A stretch of DNA of 64,000 nt from Escherichia phage 1-6af. The notes below the pieces were generated by a model. The model ran no database searches and was not told the DNA's origin. It saw nothing but the letters and a program-made list of their open reading frames with translations. Numbering within the stretch: the first letter of the stretch is position 1; every line of letters starts with the position of its first letter. The translations under genes and the position numbers were made by a program. Below, piece by piece: positions 37,911 through 59,860 of the stretch. The stretch lies in the sequence record OR983333.1. One strand, written 5' to 3'.

Positions 37911-37912
37911 TG

Positions 37913-38137: not shown

Positions 38138-38351
38138 GAGGTTCTACCTTAATGCCTTTGATTTTTACATAATCAGCAAGCACGTTGTTGATCACCGTTG
38201 GGAAAGGAACCTCAACCTGTGTTTCAAGTACTTGACCAATACCAGCTTGCATCCACTTTTGGATTGCACGAAGGTTATCACATCCTGTGCTCGTCATCGG
38301 GATACGTCGAGTAGTTACAACGTTATCCAGCATCATCTTACGAATTTCCAT
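38118..38351 (-). CDS. hypothetical protein
   Basis: 77-aa ORF in the ligase operon. Confidence 0.35.
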   Translation of the reverse strand: MEIRKMMLDNVVTTRRIPMTSTGCDNLRAIQKWMQAGIGQVLETQVEVPFPTVINNVLADYVKIKGIKVEPHVKSGS

Positions 38352-38353
38352 AC

Positions 38354-40384: not shown

Positions 40385-40463
40385 TTTCTAATCCACCTGA
40401 AGGGTAAACCCTTTCATCTAATTAACCTTTAAATTGTGCCCCTTTGTCAGAGGCACCCATTGA

Positions 40464-42181: not shown

Positions 42182-42190
42182 GATAACCTC

Positions 42191-42997: not shown

Positions 42998-43961
42998 TGT
43001 AATACTCCACTAGTTCAGAAAAGAGAGATGAGATTGTGTTACCAACTTCTTCAAGAGTAAGACCGGAATCTGCTCCAGTTCTCTGAATCAGTCGGGCTGT
43101 AAAGTTTTGTACTGTAATGTTTCCCAACTTGTCATCTATTGTTTCACGTTTGTGACCATAACAGTTGGACCAGAGTCTTAACCACTCTGACATTGTTTCA
43201 TACTCGTCTGGGTCTTGATCTTTAGCACGAGCAAATCTTCGTAAGGCATCTTGGTTATGGTTACGAACATAACCATGCCCGTTGTCGCCAACACCGAAGG
43301 GGTTTTGAACCCATACTTGTTTCGTGTATTCATCAGAGTCAACAACCAAAGGAAGGAATGCTGCTGCTGACATATTGTTGTTAATAACAATAGAGGTGCT
43401 CTCGCTACTCCCATTGGCTCTTCCTCGTTGAGACCATCCACCGAAGAAGTCACGACCCAACCCAGCTAACACTAGAGCGATGCCGATGCGTTTACGCTTA
43501 AGCCACTCTTCCCTGTCTTCAATTCCTTCTGCTAGGAAATCCATTCCACGATACTGCCCTTCCAGAATGCTACGGAAGAGCATGAGTCCTGTGAAGATCT
43601 GATCTGCTGGATGCTCACGAAGGTTGACAGCAACACTATTCGCTGAAGTGATCGTAAATACGTCACGATAGCAAGACATGGAGTTCATAATGTCTGCTGT
43701 TTCAACCAAATTCTTTTCAATATCAGATGTAACATGACCATGAAAAGAGTGAGTCCAGTAATTCAACATCTCCAGTTGCAAGTTGATATCACGGTTGAAG
43801 CGACGATAGCGCCCTTCTTCCGTGATAACTTCACCATTAATGTCATTTACACACTGGCCTTGCATGTAGTTGTGGATACCGAAGCACCCACGACCTAAGA
43901 ACTTCTGTTCCCCTAAATCCTGTTGAAGATTCTGAGGTACGATCGTTGTGGAGATTGACAT
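42990..43961 (-). CDS. hypothetical protein (ligase operon)
   Basis: 323-aa ORF; overlapping start/stop. Confidence 0.4.
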   Translation of the reverse strand: MSISTTIVPQNLQQDLGEQKFLGRGCFGIHNYMQGQCVNDINGEVITEEGRYRRFNRDINLQLEMLNYWTHSFHGHVTSDIEKNLVETADIMNSMSCYRDVFTITSANSVAVNLREHPADQIFTGLMLFRSILEGQYRGMDFLAEGIEDREEWLKRKRIGIALVLAGLGRDFFGGWSQRGRANGSSESTSIVINNNMSAAAFLPLVVDSDEYTKQVWVQNPFGVGDNGHGYVRNHNQDALRRFARAKDQDPDEYETMSEWLRLWSNCYGHKRETIDDKLGNITVQNFTARLIQRTGADSGLTLEEVGNTISSLFSELVEYYND

Positions 43962-43971
43962 AACTAACCTT

Positions 43972-45171
43972 TTATTTTCCTAAAAATAATCCGCTCATAA
44001 CACCATCCCACTCAGAGGATGGAATCACTGAATACTCCGAACTTTGGTCCAGAGTTCCACTACTAAATCGCTGAACAATGTTGTAGATGTTGAACAGGTC
44101 TTTAGCCTCGGCACGAATGCCATATACTAATTTATTTGCTGTTCTTTCATCTTTAGAGACACGACGAGCAAAGTTAACCAAAAGGTTATCACATTTCAGG
44201 ATTTCTGATTCACTCTCTACTAGATCGGGGTGCATTACTGGCAAGAACATTGAGTTGTTAACTCGCAATTCTGCTGTTTCGTCGTTCTCATAATGAATCC
44301 ACTTAAAGTCTTCATCACGGAAGTGACCGCATCCATCTCTGTATGACTGTTGACGCCAAGGCACTTGAAATGCTTCAGCGTATTTATCAGCCATACCAAC
44401 TGTAAATAGCGACGCTGGGAAGATACAAGCATCCCAATCATTACCAACCAGAGTTGCTTTCGTTTCACCCAAGAGGTTAGTGTAAGTGCTAACCATTCGT
44501 GAGTAAACATAAGCCTGAAGGATTGTCCAGCCTTCAACCAACCATTTGTGGAGGAAGGTTTCAACTTGACTCTCTTCATCTTCACAATAGAAGGTTCGAT
44601 CTAACATCAAATAGAATAGACAACGATCAGCAGGAACATTTTCAGTTGCTACCCCCATAAAACCTTTATCGTGCCAGCGTAAACAGGAGGGACGATCTTT
44701 GTCCACAAATGCTTCCATAGCTTCCAGTACAGCACGAGGTGTGGTTCGATGTTCAGGGTTTTTGTCGTTCCAACGTTCAATGTTATTCTTAGGGGGCGTG
44801 TCTTCATCTTCATACGAACACCAACTTAAAGCTTCAGCTACATGCTTTTCATCACGCCAACTTCTAAAGCCTAACATCTTCATATGAGTTCCAGAGTTCC
44901 AGATATGCTTGATTTTACACATATCCATCTCTCGGCTTAACAGGAACTCTTCCCCATCAGCACTACGAACGTTAGATTCTTCATGCCACACTCGAACGTG
45001 CATATTCCATCCATGAGTTGCCTCATACATGTTAGGGTCGAAGTAGTCATCATATTCTTCGTCGTCTTCATCAACGCCACCATTATAGTTGCGAAGCTGA
45101 AGGAACCCATAACAAGGAGGACTAACCGTTAAAACATTACCTTCAGTATCTTCTAATGTTACTGGAAACAT
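43972..45171 (-). CDS. hypothetical Trp-rich acidic protein (ligase operon)
   Basis: 399-aa ORF; operon context. Confidence 0.4.
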   Translation of the reverse strand: MFPVTLEDTEGNVLTVSPPCYGFLQLRNYNGGVDEDDEEYDDYFDPNMYEATHGWNMHVRVWHEESNVRSADGEEFLLSREMDMCKIKHIWNSGTHMKMLGFRSWRDEKHVAEALSWCSYEDEDTPPKNNIERWNDKNPEHRTTPRAVLEAMEAFVDKDRPSCLRWHDKGFMGVATENVPADRCLFYLMLDRTFYCEDEESQVETFLHKWLVEGWTILQAYVYSRMVSTYTNLLGETKATLVGNDWDACIFPASLFTVGMADKYAEAFQVPWRQQSYRDGCGHFRDEDFKWIHYENDETAELRVNNSMFLPVMHPDLVESESEILKCDNLLVNFARRVSKDERTANKLVYGIRAEAKDLFNIYNIVQRFSSGTLDQSSEYSVIPSSEWDGVMSGLFLGK

Positions 45172-45182
45172 TATACCAACCT

Positions 45183-45545
45183 CTATTGGTTTTTAATTAA
45201 CTCAATCGACTTACGGATATAAAGAATATCTCGGAAGTTTCGATAGTTGTTCATAAATTGATGCTTCTGGAACTCAGCTTCTTCCAGAGCTTTCTTTGCT
45301 TCTGCGTAGTTTTTACGGGCAAGATGTACAACCCGCTCTGGTAACACGTTTGCACGATGGATTAGATACTTATGAGCTTTCATGTTACTTTGCTCACGAG
45401 CAATCTTACCTTTAGCAACCTTGATACCATTTGCAATCCAAGCAAGTTCTTGCTCAAGCTCATCGTTGGACATTCCACCGAGGTTTGATGCAACCTTGTT
45501 CAGAGTTTCAATATTAACGTTGCCCTTGATGGGACGTGTATTCAT
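45183..45545 (-). CDS. hypothetical protein
   Basis: 120-aa helical ORF, first gene of the ligase operon. Confidence 0.4.
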   Translation of the reverse strand: MNTRPIKGNVNIETLNKVASNLGGMSNDELEQELAWIANGIKVAKGKIAREQSNMKAHKYLIHRANVLPERVVHLARKNYAEAKKALEEAEFQKHQFMNNYRNFRDILYIRKSIELIKNQ

Positions 45546-45547
45546 AC

Positions 45548-45700
45548 TTACTCCTGTTGTTTACACTCGTCAATAACCCACTGATAAGTGGATTGCCCAG
45601 AAAAGAAACACTGAATAAATCCAGATGTTCTCTGCGTTACCAGTGCTAGTGCACAAATCACTACCGCTGCTGCTAGCAGTTTTAAATCTAATTTAGACAT
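45548..45700 (-). CDS. small signal-peptide-like protein (50 aa)
   Basis: Below cutoff; ATG 45700 with GAGG RBS; hydrophobic N-terminus; hand translation. Confidence 0.3.
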   Translation of the reverse strand: MSKLDLKLLAAAVVICALALVTQRTSGFIQCFFSGQSTYQWVIDECKQQE

Positions 45701-45926
45701 ATTTCCTCTCGTTGAATTTAAAAAAGGACTCTCCGAAAAGAGTCAAGCTTTAAATACAAAAAGATATTACCCAATATCTGTGGATAACCTGCTCTTAAAA
45801 TATCTATCCGACGGATGTTCGAGGAATGTTCCTCTCCCTAGCATCGGCCCCATACGGGAAATATATTAAGATTAGGTTAGTTGAGTCAGAATAACTCACA
45901 TAGCCCTCCGAAGAAGGCTATAGGTG

Positions 45927-46160
45927 TTACTCGCCTTTCTTAGCACGGTCTTTGGCAGTCTTGCCAGTGCGGATGCGGTGTGAAACGTTAACCAGAGTGC
46001 CACCTTCAACTACAGTAACGCTCTTGTTTTTAGCCAGATCAAACACAGTCTTCTCTGTGCCGCCCAAGCGAATTTGCTTAGGCTCACTGAAGGTTTGGGT
46101 TGATTTAGATTGGAACTGGAATGGTTGACGGATTGCATCAATTGCGCTTACTTTAGACAT
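45927..46160 (-). CDS. hypothetical protein
   Basis: 77-aa basic ORF with AAGGAA RBS. Confidence 0.4.
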   Translation of the reverse strand: MSKVSAIDAIRQPFQFQSKSTQTFSEPKQIRLGGTEKTVFDLAKNKSVTVVEGGTLVNVSHRIRTGKTAKDRAKKGE

Positions 46161-46266
46161 AGGGGAAATTCCTTAAAAAGTCATGGCTGCGTAGAGGGAA
46201 TTCCCTACGCAAATTGGGCCGCCCACAGAGAGGCGTCATAGTACTAAAAGGAGGAGAGAAGAAGGC

Positions 46267-46383
46267 TTATTTAGCTACCTTTTTCTGTCCATTTACGAAC
46301 CAGATAATTGAACCATCAGGCTGTCGTTGACCGAAGCCTTTCTGGTTAATCATATCGTCATAAGAATATGCTTTACGTCTCAT
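46267..46383 (-). CDS. hypothetical small protein (38 aa)
   Basis: Below cutoff; AGGAAAA RBS; hand translation. Confidence 0.25.
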   Translation of the reverse strand: MRRKAYSYDDMINQKGFGQRQPDGSIIWFVNGQKKVAK

Positions 46384-46394
46384 TTGTTTTCCTA

Positions 46395-46607
46395 TTAACA
46401 GGCGTAGTTACTTAGATACACATGCCGATCTCTCAGCACCTCACCAAGAAAAGATTTGTAATCTTCTGTTATGTCAGAATAAAACTTCTCTTTAGCTTCT
46501 TCCTCAGACACTTTCCACAACTTAGAAAGTTGGTTGAACAATACTTCCTCAGAGGAGAACAGTAGGTATGCATTCTGGATGAGTATATCTTTCTCTTCTT
46601 GAGTCAT
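46395..46607 (-). CDS. hypothetical protein
   Basis: 70-aa ORF; operon context. Confidence 0.4.
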   Translation of the reverse strand: MTQEEKDILIQNAYLLFSSEEVLFNQLSKLWKVSEEEAKEKFYSDITEDYKSFLGEVLRDRHVYLSNYAC

Positions 46608-46614
46608 AGATCAC

Positions 46615-46863
46615 CTATGAAGTTAAAATAATCTCAGCCTTAATAAACTTCTCACCAACAACCATATCTCCAGACACAGGACGAACTTCTCCAGTTCCTA
46701 AGTTAACAGCTCCAGCAGGTTGACAACCTATGCTCTTAGCTGTCAGCATGTAAATCTTTTGAAGATGGCACTCTTGGAGAGTGAACACATCTGACATGTT
46801 TAGATCTTTAACACGGAGGACTGTTTCCTCTTTGCTCTTAACTTTAATATGAATAGTGCTCAT
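46615..46863 (-). CDS. small beta-rich protein (paralog family member)
   Basis: About 80 aa; shares a loose motif with the family described in findings. Confidence 0.4.
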   Translation of the reverse strand: MSTIHIKVKSKEETVLRVKDLNMSDVFTLQECHLQKIYMLTAKSIGCQPAGAVNLGTGEVRPVSGDMVVGEKFIKAEIILTS

Positions 46864-46865
46864 AA

Positions 46866-47111
46866 TTACTCCTGAACCACTGACATACGAATCATTTCAA
46901 CCTGAGTATCACTTTTCATAACACCCAGAACACCAGTCATAAGATTAACTGTAGTAATCCAACCTTCTTCGACAGAGATCTTATTGGATACATTGGTAAC
47001 TCGCATATAATACTGAGGCGATGCTAAACCTTGTTGGATTACGAAAGGGTTTCCGGGAATAATTGTATCCAGTGAAACAGTTTTATCTTTAATCTTGGGA
47101 AGGATCTTCAT
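46866..47111 (-). CDS. small beta-rich protein (paralog family member)
   Basis: LxxIPGNPF motif; tandem with neighbours. Confidence 0.45.
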   Translation of the reverse strand: MKILPKIKDKTVSLDTIIPGNPFVIQQGLASPQYYMRVTNVSNKISVEEGWITTVNLMTGVLGVMKSDTQVEMIRMSVVQE

Positions 47112-47359
47112 TATGTGTTATCCACCAAAAGTTCTGCTGACACAGGAACAACTCGGCACCAGATAGAAGGTGCTGTTACGTTACCATCGGATAAACGAAG
47201 GGTAATTGCTCGATCAGAGTTAACGGTTACATTAGGACTTTCAGACACAGACCCTTTAACATAGAGAGTAGCACTCTCAGGGAATTTAAATACTGCTCCG
47301 CTGGGAAGGGAGTTGATATCAACCGTGGTCACTTCTTCTTTCTTGTGAGTAATCTTCAT
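47111..47359 (-). CDS. small beta-rich protein (paralog family member)
   Basis: INSLPSGAVF motif; ATGA overlap with neighbour. Confidence 0.45.
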   Translation of the reverse strand: MKITHKKEEVTTVDINSLPSGAVFKFPESATLYVKGSVSESPNVTVNSDRAITLRLSDGNVTAPSIWCRVVPVSAELLVDNT

Positions 47360-47367
47360 ATTGATTC

Positions 47368-47679
47368 CTATTTAAGTTTGAGGCTAATATTAAGGTGCAT
47401 ACATGCCCTGTTCTGTACAGCAGCATAGCTTCTACCGAGCATGTCAGCCATTCTCTGAATAGACATGAACCCAGCATTACGGATAAGGAACTGGTCTTCT
47501 TCTTCAGACCATTTAACTCGGATTGAAGCTCTTGATATTCCGAATTTAGTGCAAGCTGTATTAACTGCATTCTCCGTTACATTCATAATCTGAGCAACTT
47601 CTTTAACCGAGTACTCTTTGATTAGTCTCCGAAGATTTTCAATCTGCATCGGAGTCCATATAGTTCTTCGTGCTTTCAT
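47368..47679 (-). CDS. HTH DNA-binding protein (two tandem HTH-like repeats)
   Basis: Two repeats of W..E......S..E.A.....AV pattern (sigma region-4 / Myb-like); GGAGG RBS. Confidence 0.45.
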   Translation of the reverse strand: MKARRTIWTPMQIENLRRLIKEYSVKEVAQIMNVTENAVNTACTKFGISRASIRVKWSEEEDQFLIRNAGFMSIQRMADMLGRSYAAVQNRACMHLNISLKLK

Positions 47680-47706
47680 ACATCCTCCAATTAGATATTA
47701 TTCGAT

Positions 47707-47853
47707 TTGGTTACAGGTGTAGGATTCGAACCTACGCTCGGACTCCCTAGCCATCACCAAAGGAATGCATCCAATGGGCATACGGTCATTTGACCACGGG
47801 CGACTGCTTTACCGTAGGCTCTGCATTAGTGAGCCTCATAAGCTATACCTGTA
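47707..47853 (-). other. tRNA-like element of non-canonical length
   Basis: Minus strand reads GTAGG-TTCGAAT-CCTAC (T-arm), ACCTGTA, A, CCA; the only complementary 5' acceptor (TACAGGT) lies about 147 nt upstream, so no standard cloverleaf. Confidence 0.3.
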
Positions 47854-47982
47854 ACTAATTGCCAGGGATTCCACCTGGCTCCATCTGTTTTTAAAGTCAC
47901 TCAGATATCGTCCGGACTCTTTGCTGAGGGCCGTACAGGCTACTTCAAGTAACTGCTGTAAAGATTATTCCACAGCTTACCA

Positions 47983-48081
47983 CGATGAGGAGGTGCCTCA
48001 TCAGGAGAGTACACTAGCTCTGGGCCACGCCGTAGATATCGGCCTCCCTTCTACAGCTAATCAGCTAGTGTACTCTCCTGA
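47983..48081. repeat. nested inverted repeats (7-bp hairpin plus 20-bp perfect inverted repeat with 43-nt spacer)
   Basis: GATGAGG-aggtg-CCTCATC, then ATCAGGAGAGTACACTAGCT ... AGCTAGTGTACTCTCCTGAT. Confidence 0.6.
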
Positions 48082-48327
48082 TAATTTATAAATAGGGGGA
48101 GGGGACGAATCCTCCCTTATCCTATTAATTAGTATTGCATGTAAGATCTAACAATCGGTTGCCTTTGTAGGAATAAGCGTTATGCTAATCCAGCACTAAA
48201 CTCCCGCCCCCTTAGTGGGCTGGGTTATTAAAGGGTAACGCCCTTATGGGCTAGTTACATGAATGTTAGTTTGATAGGAGATCTGAAGTCCTATCTCAAA
48301 GGACTCTCGTAAGAATCCTTCACGATA

Positions 48328-48459
48328 TTACTTATTCATCTCTCGTCGGCTATCTCTCCAAGCCAACCAAGTGTAGGTTTTCAGTTCTTCAAAGTCTTCT
48401 GGAGAGAATAGATACTCTTTGAAGGTATCACCAAACCACTTTAAAAATTCTTCAGTCAT
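48328..48459 (-). CDS. hypothetical small protein (43 aa)
   Basis: Below cutoff; hand translation; weak AAGAGA RBS. Confidence 0.25.
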   Translation of the reverse strand: MTEEFLKWFGDTFKEYLFSPEDFEELKTYTWLAWRDSRREMNK

Positions 48460-48468
48460 AATATTCTC

Positions 48469-48642
48469 TTAGCAAGACTGGTCACACGGCTGATCACCGC
48501 ATGTTTTACAAATTACTGGTGAATAACTACAGGCAGGGTAGACAGAAACCCCATCCCATGTCTCACACCCACAATCAGGACATGTGCCGTTTGATTCCAT
48601 GTCATCATCGTCATCTACTTCACCGCCACCAAAACAACTCAT
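48469..48642 (-). CDS. small Cys-rich zinc-binding protein (57 aa)
   Basis: Below cutoff; ATG 48642 with AAGGAG RBS; CPDCGC ... CKTCGD..C pattern; hand translation. Confidence 0.4.
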   Translation of the reverse strand: MSCFGGGEVDDDDDMESNGTCPDCGCETWDGVSVYPACSYSPVICKTCGDQPCDQSC

Positions 48643-48651
48643 ACAGGCTCC

Positions 48652-48873
48652 TTAGTAAACTAAACCTATAGCCTTTGCATCGGGCTGAGGGACTACCTTT
48701 GCGCTAGGGCGATAACCATCCACTGAACCATTCCAAAGGTTGACACAGGTAATATACCCATCGTCTATGATGTCTGTTTTAATCCAGAAGTGTTTATCAT
48801 GACCAAAGATACTTCCGTTTGGCAGCGTGGACAGTTCAGCGGTTTTAAGTGACTGCTTAGAGTCTAGTTTCAT
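48652..48873 (-). CDS. small beta-rich protein (paralog family member)
   Basis: LSTLPNGSIFG..KHFWI motif. Confidence 0.45.
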   Translation of the reverse strand: MKLDSKQSLKTAELSTLPNGSIFGHDKHFWIKTDIIDDGYITCVNLWNGSVDGYRPSAKVVPQPDAKAIGLVY

Positions 48874-48880
48874 AATAACC

Positions 48881-49129
48881 TCAATTATCGTAGCATGTAT
48901 TCCAATACATGTAGTTAACGTACGTTCTCGGTTTGATTCCGTACATGATGAAGTGAGTCTTCTTGATCCTTTCCTTCAGCGTGTAATAAAGGCCATCACT
49001 GAAGTTACCAATCTTTACTTGGAAGCGTAAGGAGCGAGCATCCATTCGAAGCATGGAGATTAGCTGTACCCTACTACCTCCAGCCATCTCTTCAAGAAGC
49101 TTCTTTGTATTCCAATAATGAGCTGTCAT
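48881..49129 (-). CDS. hypothetical protein
   Basis: 82-aa ORF; operon context. Confidence 0.35.
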   Translation of the reverse strand: MTAHYWNTKKLLEEMAGGSRVQLISMLRMDARSLRFQVKIGNFSDGLYYTLKERIKKTHFIMYGIKPRTYVNYMYWNTCYDN

Positions 49130-49130
49130 A

Positions 49131-49412
49131 TTACCACTCCTTACCGGTTGTTGTTACAGAACCACCACACCACTGTGCATCTGACAAGGTTTTAGTTTCC
49201 TCATCTACTGCTGCACCGTTCAGGCATGAGATACCACTGTAACGCATATCAATTTCACCAGAAGGAACCTTCTCACCTTTGTGCCAGCGAGAAACACAAA
49301 CACCTTCCACTGCTACTGCACACCATCCATCAGGACGGCTCTGTACGCAGCCTGTAAGGGCTATGCAGACAAGGAAGATACATATTAAGGATATTACACC
49401 ACCCCATGACAT
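49131..49412 (-). CDS. lipoprotein
   Basis: Signal peptide with lipobox LTGC from internal Met; GGAGG RBS; ORF track extends to 49469 over the palindromic element. Confidence 0.45.
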   Translation of the reverse strand: MSWGGVISLICIFLVCIALTGCVQSRPDGWCAVAVEGVCVSRWHKGEKVPSGEIDMRYSGISCLNGAAVDEETKTLSDAQWCGGSVTTTGKEW

Positions 49413-49420
49413 AACACACC

Positions 49421-49510
49421 TCCAAGAGCCTCTAGCGAGGATGACAGGGTTCGAACCTGCATACTCCAATTACTTCTTTAACGACCGCTTAGAAGGCGGG
49501 GAAGATACAT
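49421..49510. repeat. palindromic tRNA-like intergenic element
   Basis: 13-bp perfect inverted repeat TCTAGCGAGGATG ... CATCCTCGCTAGA enclosing GGTTCGAACC and a CCGC-CTTCTAA-GCGG stem-loop (minus sense). Confidence 0.45.
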
Positions 49511-49525
49511 CCTCGCTAGAAGCTC

Positions 49526-49966
49526 TTATTTATTATTGAAACCCTTGCTCCAGTAATACTTACCGTTGCAAGACCTACTACAAAAATGGTTTTGGTTTTC
49601 TTTGTGGACCTTGTTACCCCTTCTCTCAAAAGATGTGCCACAATTACTACAAATCAAAGTAATGACCACACCCTTAGGTCTGTTCTCTAAGGTCTTCTTT
49701 AGGTGATCATTTGTGCTTAGAATCTGAAGGTTAGATATCTCATCATTGGTTGGATTTTGATCAACATGATCTACCTCTTCCTCCGCAGTAAGATACCTCC
49801 CTACATGGCAAGACATTAAATACCTTGCATAAGAGATCGTAGTCCTATCTGTGTTAGAATTGAATAGGTCAACACGCCTCCTCCCATCCTTACTTGTCCT
49901 TAAATACCCCAACCTCCAGTCATTGATGAAGGGGTATTCCAACTCTATTTTCAATACCACCTCCAT
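49526..49966 (-). CDS. HNH homing endonuclease
   Basis: HNH motif EEVDHVDQNPTNDEISNL...NDH plus C-terminal zinc ribbon. Confidence 0.65.
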   Translation of the reverse strand: MEVVLKIELEYPFINDWRLGYLRTSKDGRRRVDLFNSNTDRTTISYARYLMSCHVGRYLTAEEEVDHVDQNPTNDEISNLQILSTNDHLKKTLENRPKGVVITLICSNCGTSFERRGNKVHKENQNHFCSRSCNGKYYWSKGFNNK

Positions 49967-49989
49967 TGAGCTAAGGGTGCTAGATTTGT

Positions 49990-50199
49990 TTAACTAAAGA
50001 TACGAATGGCTACATCGTGACCAATATGACCGGGAACTTTATGCTGTTCTATTTTCAAACAGTGTTTACAGATACGAGATACACGAGATTCTTTTCTCTC
50101 GACCGGAGTGTCTTTAGCGTGGGTGATATGTAGGTTCTCAGTGATCACCCACTCGTGTTTACATCCAGAATCTTCGGGCTTTTTCTTACGAAAGAACAT
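49990..50199 (-). CDS. small zinc-ribbon protein (tandem paralog 1)
   Basis: MFFRKKKP...CKHEW...CKHC; start at internal Met of ORF 49990..50241. Confidence 0.4.
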   Translation of the reverse strand: MFFRKKKPEDSGCKHEWVITENLHITHAKDTPVERKESRVSRICKHCLKIEQHKVPGHIGHDVAIRIFS

Positions 50200-50207
50200 A
50201 ACACCCC

Positions 50208-50372
50208 TTAGATCAGATCTGTTTTCTTGTGCAGACCACACACTTTACAGCGAGAGTAGATACGCAACCCTTGTCGCTCTCTGTCAGTAAGTTTATTTGT
50301 GATCGTCAGTTCATAAGTATGAAGATCTTCCCACTCATGGAAATGAAAGAAGCGTTTGAACCATTTGATCAT
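50208..50372 (-). CDS. small zinc-ribbon protein (tandem paralog 2, 54 aa)
   Basis: Below cutoff; hand translation MIKWFKRFFHFHEW...CKVCG. Confidence 0.35.
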   Translation of the reverse strand: MIKWFKRFFHFHEWEDLHTYELTITNKLTDRERQGLRIYSRCKVCGLHKKTDLI

Positions 50373-50381
50373 AATGATTCC

Positions 50382-50543
50382 TTAGATTACATCACGATGA
50401 CTAACATCACCACACACCTTACACTGAATAACGTAACGTGTGCCCTTGTCGTTATTCCCATCTGAATCTGTATAGACCAGAGGGCGAGTATTAATAATCT
50501 TCCAATCATGACAATGAAAGACACGCTTTAGCCACTTGAACAT
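50382..50543 (-). CDS. small zinc-ribbon protein (tandem paralog 3)
   Basis: MFKWLKRVFHCHDW...CKVCG from internal Met; the N-terminal 58 codons of the ORF-track call look non-coding. Confidence 0.35.
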   Translation of the reverse strand: MFKWLKRVFHCHDWKIINTRPLVYTDSDGNNDKGTRYVIQCKVCGDVSHRDVI

Positions 50544-50550
50544 ATTAACC

Positions 50551-50802
50551 TCAAGCACAAGCAGGGAGAGTGATGATTTTATACTGACCATCAAACTCAC
50601 TAAACAAACCCAAGAATGTAGGACTGTACGTACCAGTGCAAACAAACTCATCAAACAATGCGTTATAGCTAGGCTTAATCTTCCAAGCCCATACATAACC
50701 CATCTTGTCAATTGCAATGTAACGAGTGTTCAGAGGAACAGTCATCATCACACCGTCAACTTCGATCACTTTAGTGATTGGTGCAGCTTGAAAGTTTTTC
50801 AT
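50551..50802 (-). CDS. hypothetical protein
   Basis: 83-aa ORF; operon context. Confidence 0.35.
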   Translation of the reverse strand: MKNFQAAPITKVIEVDGVMMTVPLNTRYIAIDKMGYVWAWKIKPSYNALFDEFVCTGTYSPTFLGLFSEFDGQYKIITLPACA

Positions 50803-50984
50803 ACTTTACCTTTGATAAAAATATCATTACCACAGACACAGCATGAACGAACAACAGTAGCGCCACGCTGAACGATACGAACCTCTTCCTTAACCAGATT
50901 AATACGAGCACCGCAGCAAGGGGAGTTGACATAAGAGTAACCAGCTTGCGTATGTTTTATTGTTTGCTTAGACATTTTATTCAA
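50799..50984 (-). CDS. zinc-ribbon protein
   Basis: CCG ... CCVCG Cys clusters. Confidence 0.4.
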   Translation of the reverse strand: MNKMSKQTIKHTQAGYSYVNSPCCGARINLVKEEVRIVQRGATVVRSCCVCGNDIFIKGKV

Positions 50985-51321
50985 GATCTCTCAGTTGTTC
51001 AGCCATTTGTTCGCATTCGTTGATGCAGAAAGCTTCTGTTCTTGGAACCCCGTTAGGGTTGAACCGTGTCTTATCACCTGCATGGGCACAATCAAATCCG
51101 ATTGTATTTAAACCACCCATCTCTTCAAGGGTGTCTTGCCATGTGACACCACCATGAACACTTACATAACAAACCTTTTCCTTTCCGTTATATCCGGTGA
51201 AGTTTTTATGTTTTAAGCTGTCTGGTAGCTCTACATATCCACAAAAATGGGAGTCGTTCATGTGCATAATCACAGCACGAAGACCTGATTTAGTGACCCA
51301 ATCTTTAACCATGCGTCTCAT
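50977..51321 (-). CDS. hypothetical protein
   Basis: 114-aa ORF with His/Cys/Asp-rich segments. Confidence 0.4.
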   Translation of the reverse strand: MRRMVKDWVTKSGLRAVIMHMNDSHFCGYVELPDSLKHKNFTGYNGKEKVCYVSVHGGVTWQDTLEEMGGLNTIGFDCAHAGDKTRFNPNGVPRTEAFCINECEQMAEQLRDLE

Positions 51322-51365
51322 ATAAGCACCTCTTGTTAGTTTAAGTAAGAGTTGTCCCTTAATTA

Positions 51366-51393
51366 AAACAACAAAGGCCGCCCGAAGGCAGCC
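51366..51393 (-). terminator. intrinsic terminator
   Basis: GGCTGCC-ttcg-GGCGGCC hairpin with T-rich runs on both sides. Confidence 0.5.
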
Positions 51394-51402
51394 TTTTATT
51401 TA

Positions 51403-51543
51403 TTAACTGTTATACGTCCAACCACCTTGCTTGTTACGAATGGCTGACATTGCATGAATCCAAAAGCCTTCCAGTTTCAGAGCACCGTTAGCTACTGCAT
51501 CCATACGTTCAGGGCGGTTCATACGTTTGGTTGATACTTTCAT
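51403..51543 (-). CDS. hypothetical small protein (46 aa)
   Basis: Below cutoff; hand translation. Confidence 0.3.
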   Translation of the reverse strand: MKVSTKRMNRPERMDAVANGALKLEGFWIHAMSAIRNKQGGWTYNS

Positions 51544-51901
51544 ACCTATCTCTCTTTGTTAGTGGAGGCATTATTGCCAGTTGATATAAGGAATAGCCCT
51601 AGTCAGTAGACTAATCCTGACCGCGTACTCATTGCCGACCTTCTCTGCCTAAGAGTTCAGGTTCTAGAGCTATCTCTTATTCCAACTGGTGAAGACTCCC
51701 TACCCCTAGGAAGTCTCCTGAATCCCAAACTAATACGTACCCCTACATATCAGAAAGTCTTTCGAAAATTAACAGGTTTTAGTCTAGCACCGGATGTTCG
51801 AGCAAGCTCTCCCTAGCGGTGTGGCATATGCCTGAATTAATAAGTTAATGAGGAACACCCTCACATAGCCCTCTGATAAACACAAGGGCTATAAGTCGGT
51901 G

Positions 51902-52120
51902 TTACTTTTGAGTCAAATACAAATCAGGGCGAGGCATAACAGTGGTTGATGGATTGAAATTACCAACATAACCAGTGCTTAGATTGGCAGCCCTGCGTAG
52001 TCCATTAGAGAGATCATCATCTAGCATCAGCCAGAATTTTTGATCATAAGAGAAAACATCTCCCCCTTTAAGATCTTCCACATTTGCATATTTAGGAGTC
52101 TCAACTACTTTAATTTCCAT
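51902..52120 (-). CDS. small beta-rich protein (paralog family member)
   Basis: VEDLKGGDVF..QKFWL motif. Confidence 0.45.
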   Translation of the reverse strand: MEIKVVETPKYANVEDLKGGDVFSYDQKFWLMLDDDLSNGLRRAANLSTGYVGNFNPSTTVMPRPDLYLTQK

Positions 52121-52378
52121 CTACTTACCCTTGTTGGTAATAATAACATCATGAAGAAGAACAATCTTGCTTTTCGAGCTAAGCTTAAGGACTTGCTTAT
52201 TTGTCAGACTGAGGACGACACAACCACCATCAGAAGGCTTGGTCTCTTCAATCTGTGGGGTAAATAGCTGAACAACCATGTAGAAATCTGTTCGTGTTTC
52301 CCTGATTTGGAATACATCTCCAAGTTTGAGATCACCAACACACAAAGACGGTTCCTTTACTTCAAGATTAATCTTCAT
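52121..52378 (-). CDS. small beta-rich protein (paralog family member)
   Basis: VGDLKLGDVF...FYMV motif. Confidence 0.45.
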   Translation of the reverse strand: MKINLEVKEPSLCVGDLKLGDVFQIRETRTDFYMVVQLFTPQIEETKPSDGGCVVLSLTNKQVLKLSSKSKIVLLHDVIITNKGK

Positions 52379-52604
52379 CTTTAGCCTCTATATTGGTTAT
52401 GTGGAGATCACTGCGTACTTGGCAGACTTCATCTCGTTTAATAGGAATGAGCTTTCCAGTTACCACATCAACACAGTTCACATAATTTTCTGCGTATAGA
52501 CTGTCAGTTCTAATGTAAAAGAACCCTTTAGACTCAAACAGAACCCCCGGCTTCATGTTATTTAAGCGAAGCATTGTACGATCGGATTTAATATTAACTT
52601 TCAT
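52368..52604 (-). CDS. small beta-rich protein (paralog family member)
   Basis: LNNMKPGVLF..GFFYI motif. Confidence 0.45.
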   Translation of the reverse strand: MKVNIKSDRTMLRLNNMKPGVLFESKGFFYIRTDSLYAENYVNCVDVVTGKLIPIKRDEVCQVRSDLHITNIEAKDED

Positions 52605-52606
52605 CT

Positions 52607-52888
52607 TTAATCCACCTTATTGGTAAGTCGAGCATTATCAACTACCTGAACAACAGTATCTTTTCTCAACATTGTTATTCTATCCGAAGTGAGATCTACT
52701 ACTACCCTTTCATCAGACTTCCAACTAGCTGAATAAACGGTTGAGGAATCTAGCTTTACTGTAAGATATAATTTATTTTTAGGTGGCACAGTTTCAAAAA
52801 CACTTCCCACCTTCAGATCTTTCAGCTGCTTGACTACAGGGGCTGTATTAATATCATGCTTCATTGTTAATCTCCTGCTGCTTAGCAA
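52607..52888 (-). CDS. small beta-rich protein (paralog family member)
   Basis: LKDLKVGSVF...LYLTV motif. Confidence 0.45.
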   Translation of the reverse strand: MLSSRRLTMKHDINTAPVVKQLKDLKVGSVFETVPPKNKLYLTVKLDSSTVYSASWKSDERVVVDLTSDRITMLRKDTVVQVVDNARLTNKVD

Positions 52889-53150
52889 TAGCTACTCGCA
52901 AGTCTTCATTAGCACGAGCAAGGCGTAATACTTCATTGTTGAGGTTCTGAAGACGCTTGTTTCTGTCCTCTACTTGCATAATAAGATCGTTAAGTGTTAC
53001 TTTAACTTTCTCATTATACATCTCATCCACTCGAACTAGGGATTTATACATTCTCTCCCAGCTTGCTGCTTTGTTTCTGAGAATAATAAATCCTAGAACG
53101 CTGATAGTTAAACAGCTTACAAAAAGGAATTTATATACTTCTAAAGTCAT
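52854..53150 (-). CDS. membrane-anchored coiled-coil protein
   Basis: N-terminal TM helix then heptad-rich coiled coil. Confidence 0.4.
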   Translation of the reverse strand: MTLEVYKFLFVSCLTISVLGFIILRNKAASWERMYKSLVRVDEMYNEKVKVTLNDLIMQVEDRNKRLQNLNNEVLRLARANEDLRVAIAKQQEINNEA

Positions 53151-53787: not shown

Positions 53788-53816
53788 ATAAAAAAGCCCC
53801 AGCCGTAGCCGGGGCA
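53788..53816 (-). terminator. intrinsic terminator
   Basis: GC-rich hairpin GCCCCGGC / GCTGGGGC followed by TTTTTT on minus. Confidence 0.5.
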
Positions 53817-57118: not shown

Positions 57119-57743
57119 TTAAAGAGCGGTAAATCTATCAGTGTGCTTTCTCACACTATGCAACTGTTAGCCGTTGTTACGCTTTCCTTAAGCGGTGATT
57201 TGCTTAAGTGATGCTCATTATGAATCATGTTGTTTTCGCTGTCAACCGCTTTTTAATCTTTTTTCGTCGTTCCCGCTATTGGGAGGATATATCAATCAGC
57301 TTTATTTGATTGAAGATTAAGCGGTGATGCTTAACTTATGATTCATATTGTTAAAGAGCGTTAGCCTTTTAGAGTGTCTGCTAATCACTGTCACATTTAA
57401 GGCTTACTTATTCATTAACGGGCCGCCTACACCCGAACTACTCGCTGCACTATGTGCCACTTTTCCCGCGATACGTTGATTTGGGAACTTGTTAGCGGTG
57501 TATCTGCTAACTTGTGGTTAGTATGGACTACTTTAACCACGTTTGCAACTCTTTTTATCATCTTCTTTTAATTCCTTTCCCTTATCTCGCGTGAATCTAT
57601 GCGAAAGGGCAAGATGATAAGTTTTTAAAGAGCGGGATTTTTTAAGTCATCGCTGACTATGCTCACTATATATCAGGCTGTTTTCGGTGTCAATACTCTT
57701 TTTGAGAATATTTTCACTTTCTAACCTGATTTTTAAAGAGCGG
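57119..57743. repeat. dispersed TTAAAGAGCGG repeats inside a 1.8-kb ORF-free region
   Basis: Copies at 57119, 57351, 57625, 57733 (plus strand) and an inverted GAGCGGGGCAAT copy at 56326-56338; also TWAGCGGTGW-like repeats. Confidence 0.45.
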
Positions 57744-58076
57744 GGCAATTTCTTGCCTTGTATGTTTTACATCGTACCCGATGAAATGAAGTATACGCTA
57801 ATCAGATGAGATTGCAATAGGGTAAAGCAAATTATTTTAAACTTTTTCACTATAGGAAGGTAAAAGAGCAGGCGCACGCGATACATCATAGAAAACGGCT
57901 TGTAAAGCGATATTTAGCGGCCTAAAACGCATCACAACGAGCTAAAAGGGAGTAAGGCATACACTCACCTCATAAAAGAGAAAAGCCTCACTAGGAGGCT
58001 TACAGGAAGGATTAGAGAATCAGATAGATTATGACCATAGGCATGACTACGGCACAATACAGAAGAAAGATTAAGC

Positions 58077-58442
58077 CTATGGATTTACACATTGACCGTT
58101 ACCGGATGCCATTTCATTCATAGACTCATCAAAGAGCGTCAACGATGAGCGCATCAAGTGATCGACCGTAATTTGCTTACCAGTGGTTTCATTTACCAGT
58201 TGAATAGTTTTATCATATGATTGTACATGATCGAAATCATTTACATGTAAAATAATAACTTTAGGTGACTTTTTACCAGTGTCATAGTTTTCTACAATAT
58301 AGGTGCACTGTAAACCGTCAACCGTAGCAGGGGAGAACGTTGCAGCCTTAACGCTACCCATAGCTGACAGCAGGACACCTAACAGGAGAACGACAAGGAA
58401 GAAGCCTACAATCGTTTTAACGACGAATTTAATAAACCACAT
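58077..58442 (-). CDS. membrane-anchored periplasmic protein (superinfection-exclusion-like candidate)
   Basis: N-terminal TM/signal anchor then soluble domain; early-operon position. Confidence 0.4.
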   Translation of the reverse strand: MWFIKFVVKTIVGFFLVVLLLGVLLSAMGSVKAATFSPATVDGLQCTYIVENYDTGKKSPKVIILHVNDFDHVQSYDKTIQLVNETTGKQITVDHLMRSSLTLFDESMNEMASGNGQCVNP

Positions 58443-58640
58443 AGCAATTAACCTTTAATATTGAGATTAAGCAAATCGAGAGCGGCAACAATCAGTAAAT
58501 AGTTTAAAGAAATGAAGCCCACGACAAACAAAAACAAAAACAGCACAACAGACCTTAAAGAACGTAAGAATAAAGCATGTCAGCGACGAATAACGCCACT
58601 GTAACAACGAACAAGCAACGCCAAAAATAATCATGAATCA

Positions 58641-58895
58641 TTAGTTGCCTTTACCCTTAAATAGTGCTACTCTGAGCAGTTCGATTTCTTCCAGCGATAA
58701 GAGAATCCGACGTTGCGCCAAATACTGACCAGCTAGGAGGGTATCCATGATCAAAGCAACAGCGGGAAAGCTCACCGTCTTAATATTATCGCCGACAATA
58801 AACAAGATTAGACACTTGTCAGAGTCATCAGTATATGAGAAATCAATCTCACCATAATTGTGAGTCGGAATAGTAAAGCTATGCTCTTTAGTCAT
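58641..58895 (-). CDS. hypothetical protein
   Basis: 84-aa ORF; 8-nt overlap with upstream gene. Confidence 0.4.
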   Translation of the reverse strand: MTKEHSFTIPTHNYGEIDFSYTDDSDKCLILFIVGDNIKTVSFPAVALIMDTLLAGQYLAQRRILLSLEEIELLRVALFKGKGN

Positions 58896-59139
58896 GTATC
58901 AATCTTTCACTTAACAGGTTAGCCAGTGACAAATCACCTTTGATATAGATGTCACGAAAATCAGCACGGGTAATTTCAAGGCCAGCAAATTTCAACCATT
59001 TTTTAGCTGACTGAAAATCCATTTTGCAAAAAGTGATAATAGGCACGATAAGCTGACCATCAAGCGTATTAAACATGATAGCAGTATCGCCAACAAAACA
59101 AGAAAAGTCGTTAGATAATTCAACTTCTTTAATAGCCAT
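58888..59139 (-). CDS. hypothetical protein
   Basis: 83-aa ORF; operon context. Confidence 0.4.
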   Translation of the reverse strand: MAIKEVELSNDFSCFVGDTAIMFNTLDGQLIVPIITFCKMDFQSAKKWLKFAGLEITRADFRDIYIKGDLSLANLLSERLIHD

Positions 59140-59175
59140 TATTTATACTCCCAAAAGATTGGCAAATTAATTTAT

Positions 59176-59667
59176 TCACTTACTAGCCTTAATGCAGTTG
59201 GCTAAATTAACGTGAACAGTATAAACAGCGTTGTCAGCGTTATTGTAAACAGTTGTGGCGATCATCGACTCATTAACCGGACCATAACTCACAAGATTAG
59301 TAACGGCTTTAACGTCTTCATAACGTTGTACAGTGCCAAATGTCACCATATCCATATCGTTATCGGTACGCTTAAGCACCAAATCACTGTTAGGCTGATT
59401 ATCTAGCGTTTTAGATTGAAAGAGAACGCCATCATTAGTAACGTTGCTAAATTTCATCTTTAACACGATGGAAGTGCCATCACTATCAGCACCGTTACAA
59501 ATCATCCAACCCTTATTGATGGAACTAGAGAAGACACTAGCCGCATCAGTTGCAGGAGTAGGACTAGCGATAGCCTTATCAGAAAGAGATGTGACCAGTG
59601 CACTAACACCAATCGCTGCAACTAGTGCATAACTTGCCAGATTAACTACCTGCATTGCTTTAGCCAT
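59176..59667 (-). CDS. secreted protein with signal peptide (first gene of leftward block)
   Basis: Signal peptide with AIAS cleavage-like site; GGAG RBS. Confidence 0.45.
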   Translation of the reverse strand: MAKAMQVVNLASYALVAAIGVSALVTSLSDKAIASPTPATDAASVFSSSINKGWMICNGADSDGTSIVLKMKFSNVTNDGVLFQSKTLDNQPNSDLVLKRTDNDMDMVTFGTVQRYEDVKAVTNLVSYGPVNESMIATTVYNNADNAVYTVHVNLANCIKASK

Positions 59668-59860
59668 TTCGTTACTCCTTAGATAGATTCAGTCAACTGT
59701 CATCAACTATATATTAAAGGAAAAGACTGTCAACCATCTATTTTCTAACTTTCTTGCATCCTACTGAAAACTAAAGGAATTTAATTTACTAAACTTTCCA
59801 TACTCAGAGAATCAGCTTACTTCTTATTGTTACTTTATAACACTACGGGTAACAGACCAA

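What the first reader, a model, noticed from the sequence alone, without database searches (positions are those of the whole stretch)
46615..52888. Family of about eight small (70-95 aa) paralogous proteins in three tandem arrays
ORFs at 46615, 46866, 47111, 48652, 51902, 52121, 52368 and 52607 share a loose N-terminal motif [LM][KP]xG[SDAV][VIL]F followed by an aromatic-hydrophobic pair and are otherwise divergent. Small tandemly amplified early genes in lytic phages are often host-takeover or anti-defence factors evolving fast. Family membership is by eye and needs alignment.
Basis: partly seen in the sequence, partly recalled or inferred. Interest (0 to 1): 0.6.

Follow-up and report, generated by a model that had tools for sequence, protein, structure and literature searches.

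The report
Expanded SH3-like early phage protein family
Eight small early genes of this phiEco32-like coliphage are true, anciently duplicated relatives that fold into a tiny SH3-like barrel; the family is widespread in phages, has no curated description and no known function, and most likely supplies interchangeable binding modules for host takeover.

Summary
All eight minus-strand ORFs (72-85 aa) are homologous. In leave-one-out HMM tests each left-out ORF is the top hit among 488 window ORFs (E 6e-10 to 2e-4), and PHROG cross-hits link all eight. No ninth member exists in the window.

The window is a phiEco32-like podophage (Gordonclarkvirinae), 99.9% identical to phage 1-6bf. By synteny the genes lie in the sigma70-transcribed early cluster.

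The family is large: 292 clusters at 50% identity, including N4 gp21. It has no Pfam, NCBIfam, PADLOC or PDB sequence match, and its PHROGs are all of unknown function.

Relatives carry 4-11 copies. Tandem pairs recur in unrelated phage contigs, and fused two-domain forms exist.

Orthologues diverge faster than neighbouring early genes (68% versus 93% identity) but remain under purifying selection (dN/dS 0.20).

Function is untested. The best inference is paralogue-specific protein-binding modules for host takeover or counter-defence. Nucleic-acid binding is the main rival.

The parts
46615..46863 (-). m1, 82 aa family member (orthologue of phiEco32 phi32_95; phrog_12612)
   Evidence: ORF. Leave-one-out HMM E = 1.3e-7. 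PHROG hits. AGGAG Shine-Dalgarno upstream.
46866..47111 (-). m2, 81 aa family member (phi32_96; phrog_7431)
   Evidence: Leave-one-out E = 7e-6. Also hits phrog_8365 at 8e-6. Lies 2 nt from m1 and overlaps m3 by 1 nt.
47111..47359 (-). m3, 82 aa family member (phi32_97; phrog_7832)
   Evidence: Leave-one-out E = 1.8e-4. m4 and m8 hit its PHROG at 3e-5 and 1.4e-5. AF2 pLDDT 88.5, all-beta.
48652..48873 (-). m4, 73 aa family member (phi32_104; phrog_6570). Single copy here and the most conserved member.
   Evidence: Leave-one-out E = 5.6e-10. AF2 pLDDT 88.6 with five strands. tblastn matches in 71 phage records; 64 of them have a best match of at least 60% identity.
51902..52120 (-). m5, 72 aa family member (phi32_113; phrog_6570)
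   Evidence: BLASTP to m4 gives 4e-10. Leave-one-out E = 4.6e-8.
52121..52378 (-). m6, 85 aa family member (phi32_114; phrog_9955)
   Evidence: Leave-one-out E = 4.6e-8. Abuts m5 with no gap and overlaps m7 by 11 nt.
52368..52604 (-). m7, 78 aa family member (phi32_115; phrog_16423)
   Evidence: Leave-one-out E = 5.1e-8. BLASTP to m4 gives 1e-4 and to m8 gives 3e-4.
52607..52864 (-). m8, 85 aa family member. It is accessory: absent from phiEco32, Bas91, EP335 and KBNP1711. Start taken as the ATG at 52864.
   Evidence: Leave-one-out E = 1.6e-7. GGAG sits 7 nt upstream of the ATG. tblastn matches in only 23 phage records, 21 of them at 60% identity or more.
57217..59733 (-). Start of the early gene cluster, with three near-consensus sigma70 promoters (59733-59706, 57693-57665, 57245-57217) that drive leftward transcription towards the family.
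   Evidence: Each promoter matches 11 of 12 consensus positions. The positions match the description for SU10 and phiEco32: one promoter upstream of the first early gene and three in a spacer (PMC4281155, PMC8948821).
51373..51396 (-). Terminator-like hairpin downstream of the m8-m5 array. A second, stronger one lies upstream at 53796-53815.
   Evidence: Function not tested.

Best explanation
The eight ORFs are anciently duplicated, translationally coupled early genes of a phiEco32-like phage. Each encodes a soluble, stand-alone, five-stranded SH3-like small beta-barrel.

Shown here: homology among the eight; the confident predicted fold; purifying selection; copy-number turnover between related phages; wide distribution in phages.

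By synteny plus literature: expression from the host-sigma70-dependent early promoters.

Inferred: the barrel is a rigid scaffold. Its conserved residues are the hydrophobic core and the turn glycines (L17, G20, V22, F23, Y30, M/I31, V44, L46, G49, V60). Its surface strands and loops differ between paralogues, especially the loop between the 'YMKT' strand and the 'VNL' strand, whose enclosing segment (family positions 30-44) ranges from 10 to 38 residues. On this reading, each paralogue binds a different cytoplasmic partner, most likely a host protein, and blocks or redirects it early in infection. The family would then act as a set of interchangeable binding cassettes for host takeover or counter-defence, gained, lost and swapped between related phages.
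For: - Homology of the eight.
- Real genes: every member has a Shine-Dalgarno sequence and gaps between genes are -11 to +9 nt. dN/dS is 0.20, well below 1.
- Early class: sigma70 promoters at the head of the cluster; no exact gp36 element (TAATGTATA) on the minus strand between 45 and 60 kb; phiEco32 and SU10 literature (PMC8948821, PMC4281155).
- Scaffold versus surface: the high-information columns are mostly hydrophobic-core positions and turn glycines. Columns that differ between paralogues are still 88% conserved within orthologue groups.
- Protein binder rather than nucleic-acid binder: median pI of 146 members is 5.4, with 60% below pI 6.
- Turnover: 4-11 copies per genome in relatives. 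m8 matches 23 phage records and m4 matches 71. Orthologues are 68% identical versus 93% for other early genes.
- Modularity: tandem pairs in unrelated phage contigs and fused two-domain proteins.
- Precedent: the Bacillus phage counter-defence protein Nip is predicted to contain SH3-like domains and forms a complex with the SpbK defence protein (PMC11984713).
Against: - No partner, phenotype or expression measurement exists for any member.
- The SH3-like fold is equally common in nucleic-acid and ribosome binders, and the top structural neighbours (EF-P, L2, KOW, eIF5A) are of that kind.
- The only fusion to a known domain, a Bacteroidota SprT-like protease with five repeats, has strongly basic repeats (pI 9.4-9.9), which suggests DNA binding there.
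- Overall dN/dS gives no sign of positive selection. The higher dS (0.70 versus 0.38) suggests old alleles exchanged by recombination rather than an arms race.
- High conservation within orthologue groups is partly built in, because those groups are at least 65% identical.
- SU10 proteomics did not detect these proteins.
Confidence: 0.45

Rival explanations
1. The proteins are nucleic-acid-binding barrels of the LSm, KOW, EF-P domain I or Sso7d type. On this view they bind RNA, the ribosome or DNA and tune mRNA stability, translation or transcription, as proposed for the T4 GoF/MotB.1/Frd.2 'LSm-like' early proteins.
For: - One Salmonella phage 7-11 member has a sub-threshold Pfam EFP_N hit (18.7 bits against a cutoff of 23).
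- The bacterial fusion to a SprT-like protease has five strongly basic repeats.
- A Lys/Arg is conserved at position 32 (70% of sequences).
Against: - Phage members are mostly acidic or neutral (median pI 5.4). Window members range from net charge -2 to +3.
- Apart from the Lys/Arg at position 32, no conserved basic surface position stands out; the most conserved columns are hydrophobic-core and glycine positions.
- There is no sequence link to EF-P (hhalign probability 0.2%) or to T4 GoF, MotB.1 or Frd.2.
- Eight divergent paralogues are harder to explain by one generic nucleic-acid ligand.
Confidence: 0.25
2. The paralogues are subunits that pair or assemble with one another into hetero-dimers or an Sm-like hetero-oligomer. 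The array would then encode one complex rather than independent effectors.
For: - Members are almost always adjacent: 3 + 1 + 4 in the window, and tandem pairs in three unrelated contigs (L013, L014, L018).
- Natural fusions of two family domains in one polypeptide exist (P0135, P0138, P0149, P0152, P0229). This is a Rosetta-stone-type hint of interaction.
- The genes are tightly translationally coupled.
Against: - Copy number ranges from 4 to 11 among close relatives, and individual members are dispensable (m8 matches 23 phage records against 71 for m4).
- N4 has a single copy in the first 16 kb that was scanned.
- The models show no Sm-type N-terminal helix.
- Oligomerisation could not be modelled with the tools available.
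Confidence: 0.12
3. The similarity is chance or compositional, or the ORFs are decaying, non-functional filler.
For: - Pairwise identities are only 15-30%, and several pairs are not significant on their own.
- There is no known function.
- The proteins were not seen in the SU10 lysate proteome.
Against: - Leave-one-out HMM and PHROG cross-hits are significant for all eight.
- 292 clusters across the biosphere match the profile full-length.
- AF2 confidence is high.
- dN/dS is 0.20.
- Shine-Dalgarno sites precede every start codon.
- m4 matches 71 phage records.
Confidence: 0.02

Closest known systems
PHROG families 6570, 7832, 8365, 7431, 16423, 9955 and 12612 (all 'unknown function'), which include phiEco32 gp95-98, 104, 109, 113-115 and, by fold and sequence, N4 gp21
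   Same: The window proteins are full-length members of these PHROGs (E 1e-27 to 1e-47). N4 gp21 matches the family HMM at 4e-17 and matches the m4 model by Foldseek with TM 0.78.
   Different: PHROGs treats them as seven or more separate families. Here they form one superfamily: 130 of 146 diverse members hit phrog_6570 and 125 hit phrog_7832. No function or fold has been recorded for any of them.
T4 GoF / MotB.1 / Frd.2 'LSm-like fold' early proteins (Kim et al. 2025, PMC12152347)
   Same: Both are groups of several small, non-essential early proteins of a lytic coliphage with a bent five-stranded antiparallel barrel. They share PDB neighbours (FeoA and DtxR/IdeR SH3 domains), and function is unknown in both.
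   Different: No sequence relationship was detected (HMM E 0.05-0.2 in a three-sequence search; hhalign probability 0.1%). The T4 proteins have 119-141 aa with an extra C-terminal domain and are dispersed in the genome. These proteins are 72-85 aa, consist of the barrel alone, and are arrayed in tandem.
EF-P / eIF5A N-terminal KOW-like domain and other SH3-like small barrels (Tudor, KOW, ribosomal L2 C-terminal domain, DtxR-SH3, FeoA)
   Different: There is no significant sequence similarity. The functional PGKG lysine loop of EF-P is replaced by a loop of variable length. The proteins stand alone.
Stand-alone SH3 protein DUF7244 of Drexlerviridae lysis cassettes (PMC13164509), and the two predicted SH3-like domains of the Bacillus phage counter-defence protein Nip (PMC11984713)
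   Same: Both are phage-encoded SH3-like modules outside endolysins. Nip shows that a phage protein containing such domains can neutralise a defence protein by binding it.
   Different: No Pfam DUF7244 hit was found in any of 146 members. The genes lie in the early region, not beside lysis genes. Nip has 279 aa and an HU-like dimerisation domain.

Membership tests
Superfamily uniting PHROGs 6570/7832/8365/7431/16423/9955/12612 (phiEco32 gp95-type small early proteins) | Full-length, collinear profile match of a 70-90 aa protein | tested here: met
   (own PHROG E 1e-13 to 1e-47; cross-PHROG hits E 3e-7 to 1e-2). (leave-one-out). (146-sequence HMM, E 3e-15 to 3e-19).
Superfamily uniting PHROGs 6570/7832/8365/7431/16423/9955/12612 | Signature M-K-[IV] ... 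L-x-x-G-[DE]-V-F ... [YW]-[MI]-[KR]-[TV] ... V-N-L-x-[TN]-G ... V-x-P | tested here: met
   Column statistics. The window members carry it with small deviations, seen directly in the sequences: m1 has S in place of G20, and m2 has P in place of V22.
SH3-like small beta-barrel fold class | Five antiparallel strands forming a closed or bent barrel of about 60-70 residues | tested here: met
T4 GoF/MotB.1/Frd.2 LSm-like family | Detectable sequence homology of the N-terminal barrel | tested here: not met
   hmmsearch E 0.05-0.2 with alignments of 9-13 residues. hhalign probability 0.1% for MotB.1.
T4 GoF/MotB.1/Frd.2 LSm-like family | Two-domain architecture: barrel, linker and C-terminal domain, about 120-140 aa | tested here: not met
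   Window proteins have 72-85 aa and the barrel spans nearly the whole chain.
Sm/LSm/Hfq | N-terminal alpha-helix, Sm1/Sm2 motifs and ring oligomer | tested here: inconclusive
EF-P/eIF5A N-terminal (Pfam EFP_N, KOW-like) | Pfam EFP_N match above the gathering score, and the conserved PGKG modification loop | tested here: not met
   No EFP_N hit in the 8 window proteins or in 146 members. One phage 7-11 relative scores 18.7 bits, below the cutoff of 23. The loop is variable in length and has no PGKG motif.
Pfam DUF7244 (stand-alone SH3 of T1-like lysis modules) | Pfam match and position next to the lysis cassette | tested here: not met
   No Pfam hit. The neighbours are early genes, a D5-like regulator and an HNH endonuclease.
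Known anti-defence or host-shutoff proteins | Sequence or fold similarity to a characterised inhibitor, or a demonstrated phenotype | tested here: not met

The most novel reading that the evidence does not exclude
This is a phage-wide, previously unrecognised superfamily of SH3-like 'binder cassettes'. A conserved 70-residue barrel displays paralogue-specific loops. Arrays of 2-11 cassettes act as a modular, recombining repertoire of inhibitors aimed at different host hub or defence proteins. Fused two-domain forms and a bacterial SprT-protease fusion would show the same module reused as a general recognition domain.
Probability: 0.2. Interest if true: 0.75.

Novelty: new variant of a known kind. 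Interest (0 to 1): 0.45.

Why it matters
Most early genes of lytic phages are unannotated ORFans. This analysis merges at least seven 'unknown' PHROGs into one superfamily. That superfamily has 292 clusters at 50% identity and includes genes of the model phages phiEco32 and N4 (gp21). It has a confident fold, a defined signature and a clear evolutionary pattern: old duplications, cassette turnover, and accelerated but constrained divergence.

This gives experimenters a tractable target set. The proteins are 8-9 kDa, soluble and single-domain, and they occur in genetically accessible coliphages such as Bas90 and Bas91 of the BASEL collection. They are suitable for partner screens and defence-evasion assays.

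If the paralogues bind distinct host proteins, the family would be a natural library of small inhibitors. If they bind RNA, they would join T4 GoF-type proteins as phage post-transcriptional regulators.

Tried and rejected
1. I first took the window for an N4-like phage, because 'Gamaleyavirus' and Klebsiella N4-like records appeared among the hits. That was wrong. Those records match only a 60-76-nt non-coding element. N4 proteins gp1-gp32 find almost nothing in the window. The annotation of close relatives shows a phiEco32-like genome.
2. N4 gp8, the clamp-loader inhibitor, was tested as a possible member. It is not one.
3. phiEco32 gp79, an 82-aa RNAP-binding factor of the same size, was tested as a relative. 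The paper describes it in helical terms (alpha1) and its sequence shows no family signature.
4. [quoted passage not shown] T4 Ndd.1 shows only a weak N-terminal resemblance (hhalign 32%).
5. The EF-P N-domain shows no sequence link.
6. Pfam, NCBIfam, PADLOC and the PDB sequence search found nothing meaningful.
7. The search for related loci with the 146-sequence alignment failed because no stretch was conserved enough. tblastn with one distant member found nothing in cultured phages. A second homologous-protein search with the broad alignment returned no fusions and no names.
8. The afdb50 fold library was unavailable.
9. The primary phiEco32 papers (PMC3275717, PMC2587145) are not held. The early-class assignment therefore rests on secondary descriptions and synteny.
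10. A recurrent weak ORF at 63036-63203(-) (E 0.017-0.66) drops out with the broader HMM. It lies antisense to a 513-aa plus-strand ORF and was judged spurious.
11. A gp36-type promoter core (AATGTATA) at 53045-53052(-) upstream of m8 is conserved in phiEco32 and Bas91 but not in KBNP1711 or EP335. It is not among the six mapped promoters and was left as unresolved.


Full report
WHAT THE WINDOW IS

The 7.5 kb around the finding is 99.9% identical to Escherichia phage 1-6bf and about 90-93% identical, in mosaic pieces, to NJ01, EcoN5, Bas90/91, SU10, Paul and others.

Annotated relatives show the phiEco32-type genome. It has a phage sigma factor, a split DNA polymerase, and an amidoligase / COOH-NH2 ligase / glutamine amidotransferase cluster. 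A long leftward block of small genes sits at the right end. The taxonomy is Gordonclarkvirinae (Kuravirus and allies).

My initial N4-like reading was wrong and is corrected under 'tried and rejected'.

THE OBSERVATION

All eight ORFs are present on the minus strand. Homology was tested four ways:
- Pairwise BLASTP is significant for m4-m5 (4e-10), m4-m7, m6-m8 and m7-m8 (1e-4 to 3e-4), but not for m1-m3.
- In leave-one-out tests, an HMM built from any seven members ranks the omitted one first among the 488 window ORFs of at least 35 aa. E-values are 5.6e-10 to 1.8e-4, and the best unrelated ORF never beats E = 0.017.
- In PHROGs, each protein matches its own family end to end and also the families of its paralogues. 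Examples are m5 to phrog_12612 at 2e-5, m4 and m8 to phrog_7832 at about 1e-5, and m8 to phrog_16423 at 3e-7.
- A broader HMM of 146 diverse relatives finds exactly these eight ORFs and nothing else in the window at E <= 1.

The family is therefore real and complete as listed. Three details need correction:
- Sizes are 72-85 aa.
- m8 probably starts at the ATG at 52864, which has a GGAG Shine-Dalgarno sequence.
- The layout is 3 + 1 + 4.

Every member has a Shine-Dalgarno sequence, and gaps between neighbouring genes are -11 to +9 nt. There are no DNA-level repeats between members and protein identity is 15-30%. The duplications are therefore ancient.

FOLD

AlphaFold2 was run with the 146-sequence alignment. 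It gives pLDDT 88.6 (pTM 0.72) for m4 and 88.5 (pTM 0.73) for m3, the weakest member by sequence. Both models are all-beta; m4 has five strands.

FAMILY SIZE AND SPREAD

A profile search of 1.84 billion representative proteins finds 292 clusters (50% identity) at E <= 1e-3. Nearly all are 67-99 aa and match end to end.

The consensus signature is M-K-[IV]-x(9-12)-L-x-x-G-[DE]-V-F-x(6)-[YW]-[MI]-[KR]-[TV]-D-(variable loop)-V-N-L-x-[TN]-G-x(10)-V-x-P. F23 is invariant and G20 and G49 are above 90%.

None of the 146 members has a meaningful Pfam match, and nothing is found in NCBIfam or PADLOC. In PHROGs the superfamily is split over at least seven families, all of unknown function.

Foldseek against BFVD finds relatives in phages of Escherichia, Proteus, Erwinia, Klebsiella, Pseudomonas (PaP3 ORF65), Yersinia, Salmonella (7-11), Vibrio, Aeromonas, Serratia and Morganella. 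A few listed entries carry stray names such as 'Endolysin' or 'ZP domain-containing protein'; the rest are labelled uncharacterised or have no name, and none has a described function.

N4 gp21, in the block downstream of the RNAP genes gp15/gp16, is a member (HMM E = 4e-17; TM 0.78).

Metagenomic contexts:
- a siphovirus-like replication module, between Gp157 and ERF/SSB;
- a 52-kb phage where a pair sits about 2.4 kb upstream of the same amidoligase-type gene cluster as in phiEco32.

Tandem pairs occur in three of the unrelated contigs that had enough flanking sequence.

Fused forms also exist. Five proteins carry two family domains. A Bacteroidota chromosomal protein combines a SprT-like metalloprotease domain with five strongly basic repeats (pI 9.4-9.9).

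EXPRESSION CLASS

In phiEco32 and SU10 the leftward cluster is early (genes 128 down to 69 in phiEco32; CDS 69-125 in SU10). Host sigma70 RNA polymerase transcribes it from one promoter at the cluster head and three promoters in a nearby spacer. gp36-dependent promoters (tAATGTAtA) were mapped only upstream of genes 6, 13, 26, 40, 58 and 68 (PMC8948821, PMC4281155).

The window has matching near-consensus sigma70 promoters on the minus strand at 59733, 57693 and 57245. No exact gp36 element lies on the minus strand between 45 and 60 kb.

The family corresponds to phi32_95-97, 104 and 113-115. Early expression is therefore well supported by synteny, but it was not measured for this phage.

EVOLUTION

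Copy number differs among relatives. SU7 was scanned only over the fetched 18-kb early region.

| Phage | Copies |
|---|---|
| this window | 8 |
| phiEco32 | 9 (including two divergent extra types, gp98 and gp109) |
| Bas91 | 8 (two slots hold different subtypes) |
| EP335 | 11 |
| KBNP1711 | 9 |
| SU7 | 4 |
| Salmonella phage 7-11 | 4-5 |

m4 has tblastn matches in 71 phage records, while m8 has matches in only 23.

Orthologues were compared between the window and four relatives:

| Gene set | Median aa identity | dN | dS | dN/dS |
|---|---|---|---|---|
| Family members | 68% | 0.21 | 0.70 | 0.20 |
| Other early genes | 93% | 0.04 | 0.38 | 0.11 |
| Middle genes | 98% | 0.017 | 0.185 | 0.10 |

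Family members differ significantly from the other early genes (Mann-Whitney p about 2e-6 for identity and 1e-3 for dN/dS).

The genes are thus under purifying selection, which confirms they are real proteins. They diverge faster than their neighbours, and the raised dS points to exchange of old alleles as well as faster protein change.

Columns that differ between paralogues are 88% conserved within orthologue groups, against 96% for core columns. This fits paralogue-specific constrained surfaces. The test is weak, because the orthologue groups are at least 65% identical to the window member.

HOW IT PROBABLY WORKS

Shown: a compact scaffold whose most conserved positions are mostly core hydrophobics and turn glycines, with variable surface strands and loops. 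The segment spanning family positions 30-44, which contains the loop after the YMKT strand, varies from 10 to 38 residues. Charge is neutral to acidic (median pI 5.4).

Inferred: each paralogue is a soluble binding module for a different partner, most likely a host protein, deployed early in infection.

Support for this is indirect. It rests on the early class, the cassette turnover, the modular fusions, the acidic charge, and the precedent of Nip, a phage counter-defence protein with predicted SH3-like domains (PMC11984713). I put this reading at about 0.45.

The main rival is nucleic-acid or ribosome binding in the manner of LSm, KOW or EF-P barrels (0.25). It is favoured by the identity of the structural neighbours, the basic SprT-fused repeats, and the T4 GoF analogy (PMC12152347). 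A hetero-oligomer of paralogues is possible but is disfavoured by the variable copy number (0.12). Chance similarity or junk ORFs are excluded.

COMPARISON WITH KNOWN FAMILIES

The proteins are members of the listed PHROGs. No member has been characterised.

They resemble T4 GoF/MotB.1/Frd.2 in fold, temporal class and shared PDB neighbours. However, they fail the sequence test and the architecture test, so they are analogues rather than members.

They are not Pfam EFP_N or DUF7244 members.

Literature searches for a description of this paralogous family in phiEco32-like phages found none.

VERDICT

The result is a moderately interesting, well-defined new superfamily of a familiar kind: small early phage ORFans on an SH3-like scaffold. 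Its function remains open.

Noticed in passing
window 47680-48330 (minus strand): A gap of about 650 bp without ORFs lies between the D5-like regulator gene and the next small gene. It ends in a tRNA-like 3' part (GGTTCGAATCC...ACCA, about 47700-47745), but neither ARAGORN nor Rfam calls anything there. A 60-76-nt piece (about 47843-47919) is 88-98% identical to DNA of N4 (32803-32878), Klebsiella N4-like phages and Shigella phage DS8. This may be a shared non-coding RNA or degenerate tRNA. That element is what brought N4-like records into the first BLAST hit list.
   Followed up: partly
window 49436-49514 (-): Only Rfam detects a tRNA here (29.7 bits against a gathering score of 29); ARAGORN finds none in the whole window. 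Relatives annotate tRNA-Arg at this position. An HNH homing-endonuclease gene (49526-49966) sits immediately upstream, and in Bas91 the two annotations overlap.
   Followed up: partly
window 49990-50717 (-): A second small tandem paralogue set with a zinc-ribbon-like pattern (H-x-W ... C-x-x-C). The ORFs 50208-50372 and the C-terminal 53 aa of 50382-50717 are 39% identical (E = 3e-11) and share a 58-nt DNA repeat. ORF 49990-50241 is a weaker third copy (E about 0.07).
   Followed up: partly
window 53045-53052 (-): The core of the phiEco32 gp36 (phage sigma) promoter element, AATGTATA, lies inside ORF 52854-53150, about 180 nt upstream of m8. It is conserved in phiEco32 and Bas91 but not in KBNP1711 or EP335, and it is not among the six mapped promoters. 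It could give the m8-m5 array additional middle-phase expression, or it could be chance.
   Followed up: partly
L003 3583-5019 and L004 6001-7437 (Bacteroidota chromosomal contigs): A 478-aa bacterial protein fuses a SprT-like metalloprotease domain to five strongly basic repeats of the same barrel domain (pI 9.4-9.9). It sits among housekeeping genes (LpxK, ManC). This suggests the domain serves as a DNA- or substrate-recognition module in a putative DNA-protein-crosslink protease.
   Followed up: partly
L016 28102-28317 (-) (phage T4 ndd.1): T4 Ndd.1 (71 aa) shares the N-terminal 'F-K-D-V-K-V-G-E-I-F' motif with the family (HMM E = 0.007 among 187 ORFs; hhalign probability 32% over 25 columns). 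It may be a very distant member.
   Followed up: partly
L018 10001-17433; window about 37900-52900: In an unrelated 52-kb metagenomic phage contig, a tandem pair of family members lies about 2.4 kb upstream of a Peptidase_C26 / COOH-NH2 ligase / Amidoligase_2 / GATase_6 cluster. This is the same relative order as in phiEco32-like phages. PaP3, which carries related genes of that cluster, also has a fold relative (ORF65). This may be a conserved neighbourhood.
   Followed up: no
window 63036-63203 (-): A 55-aa ORF, antisense to a 513-aa plus-strand ORF, repeatedly came second in the small-HMM scans (E 0.017-0.66). It disappears with the broader HMM and is probably spurious.
   Followed up: yes
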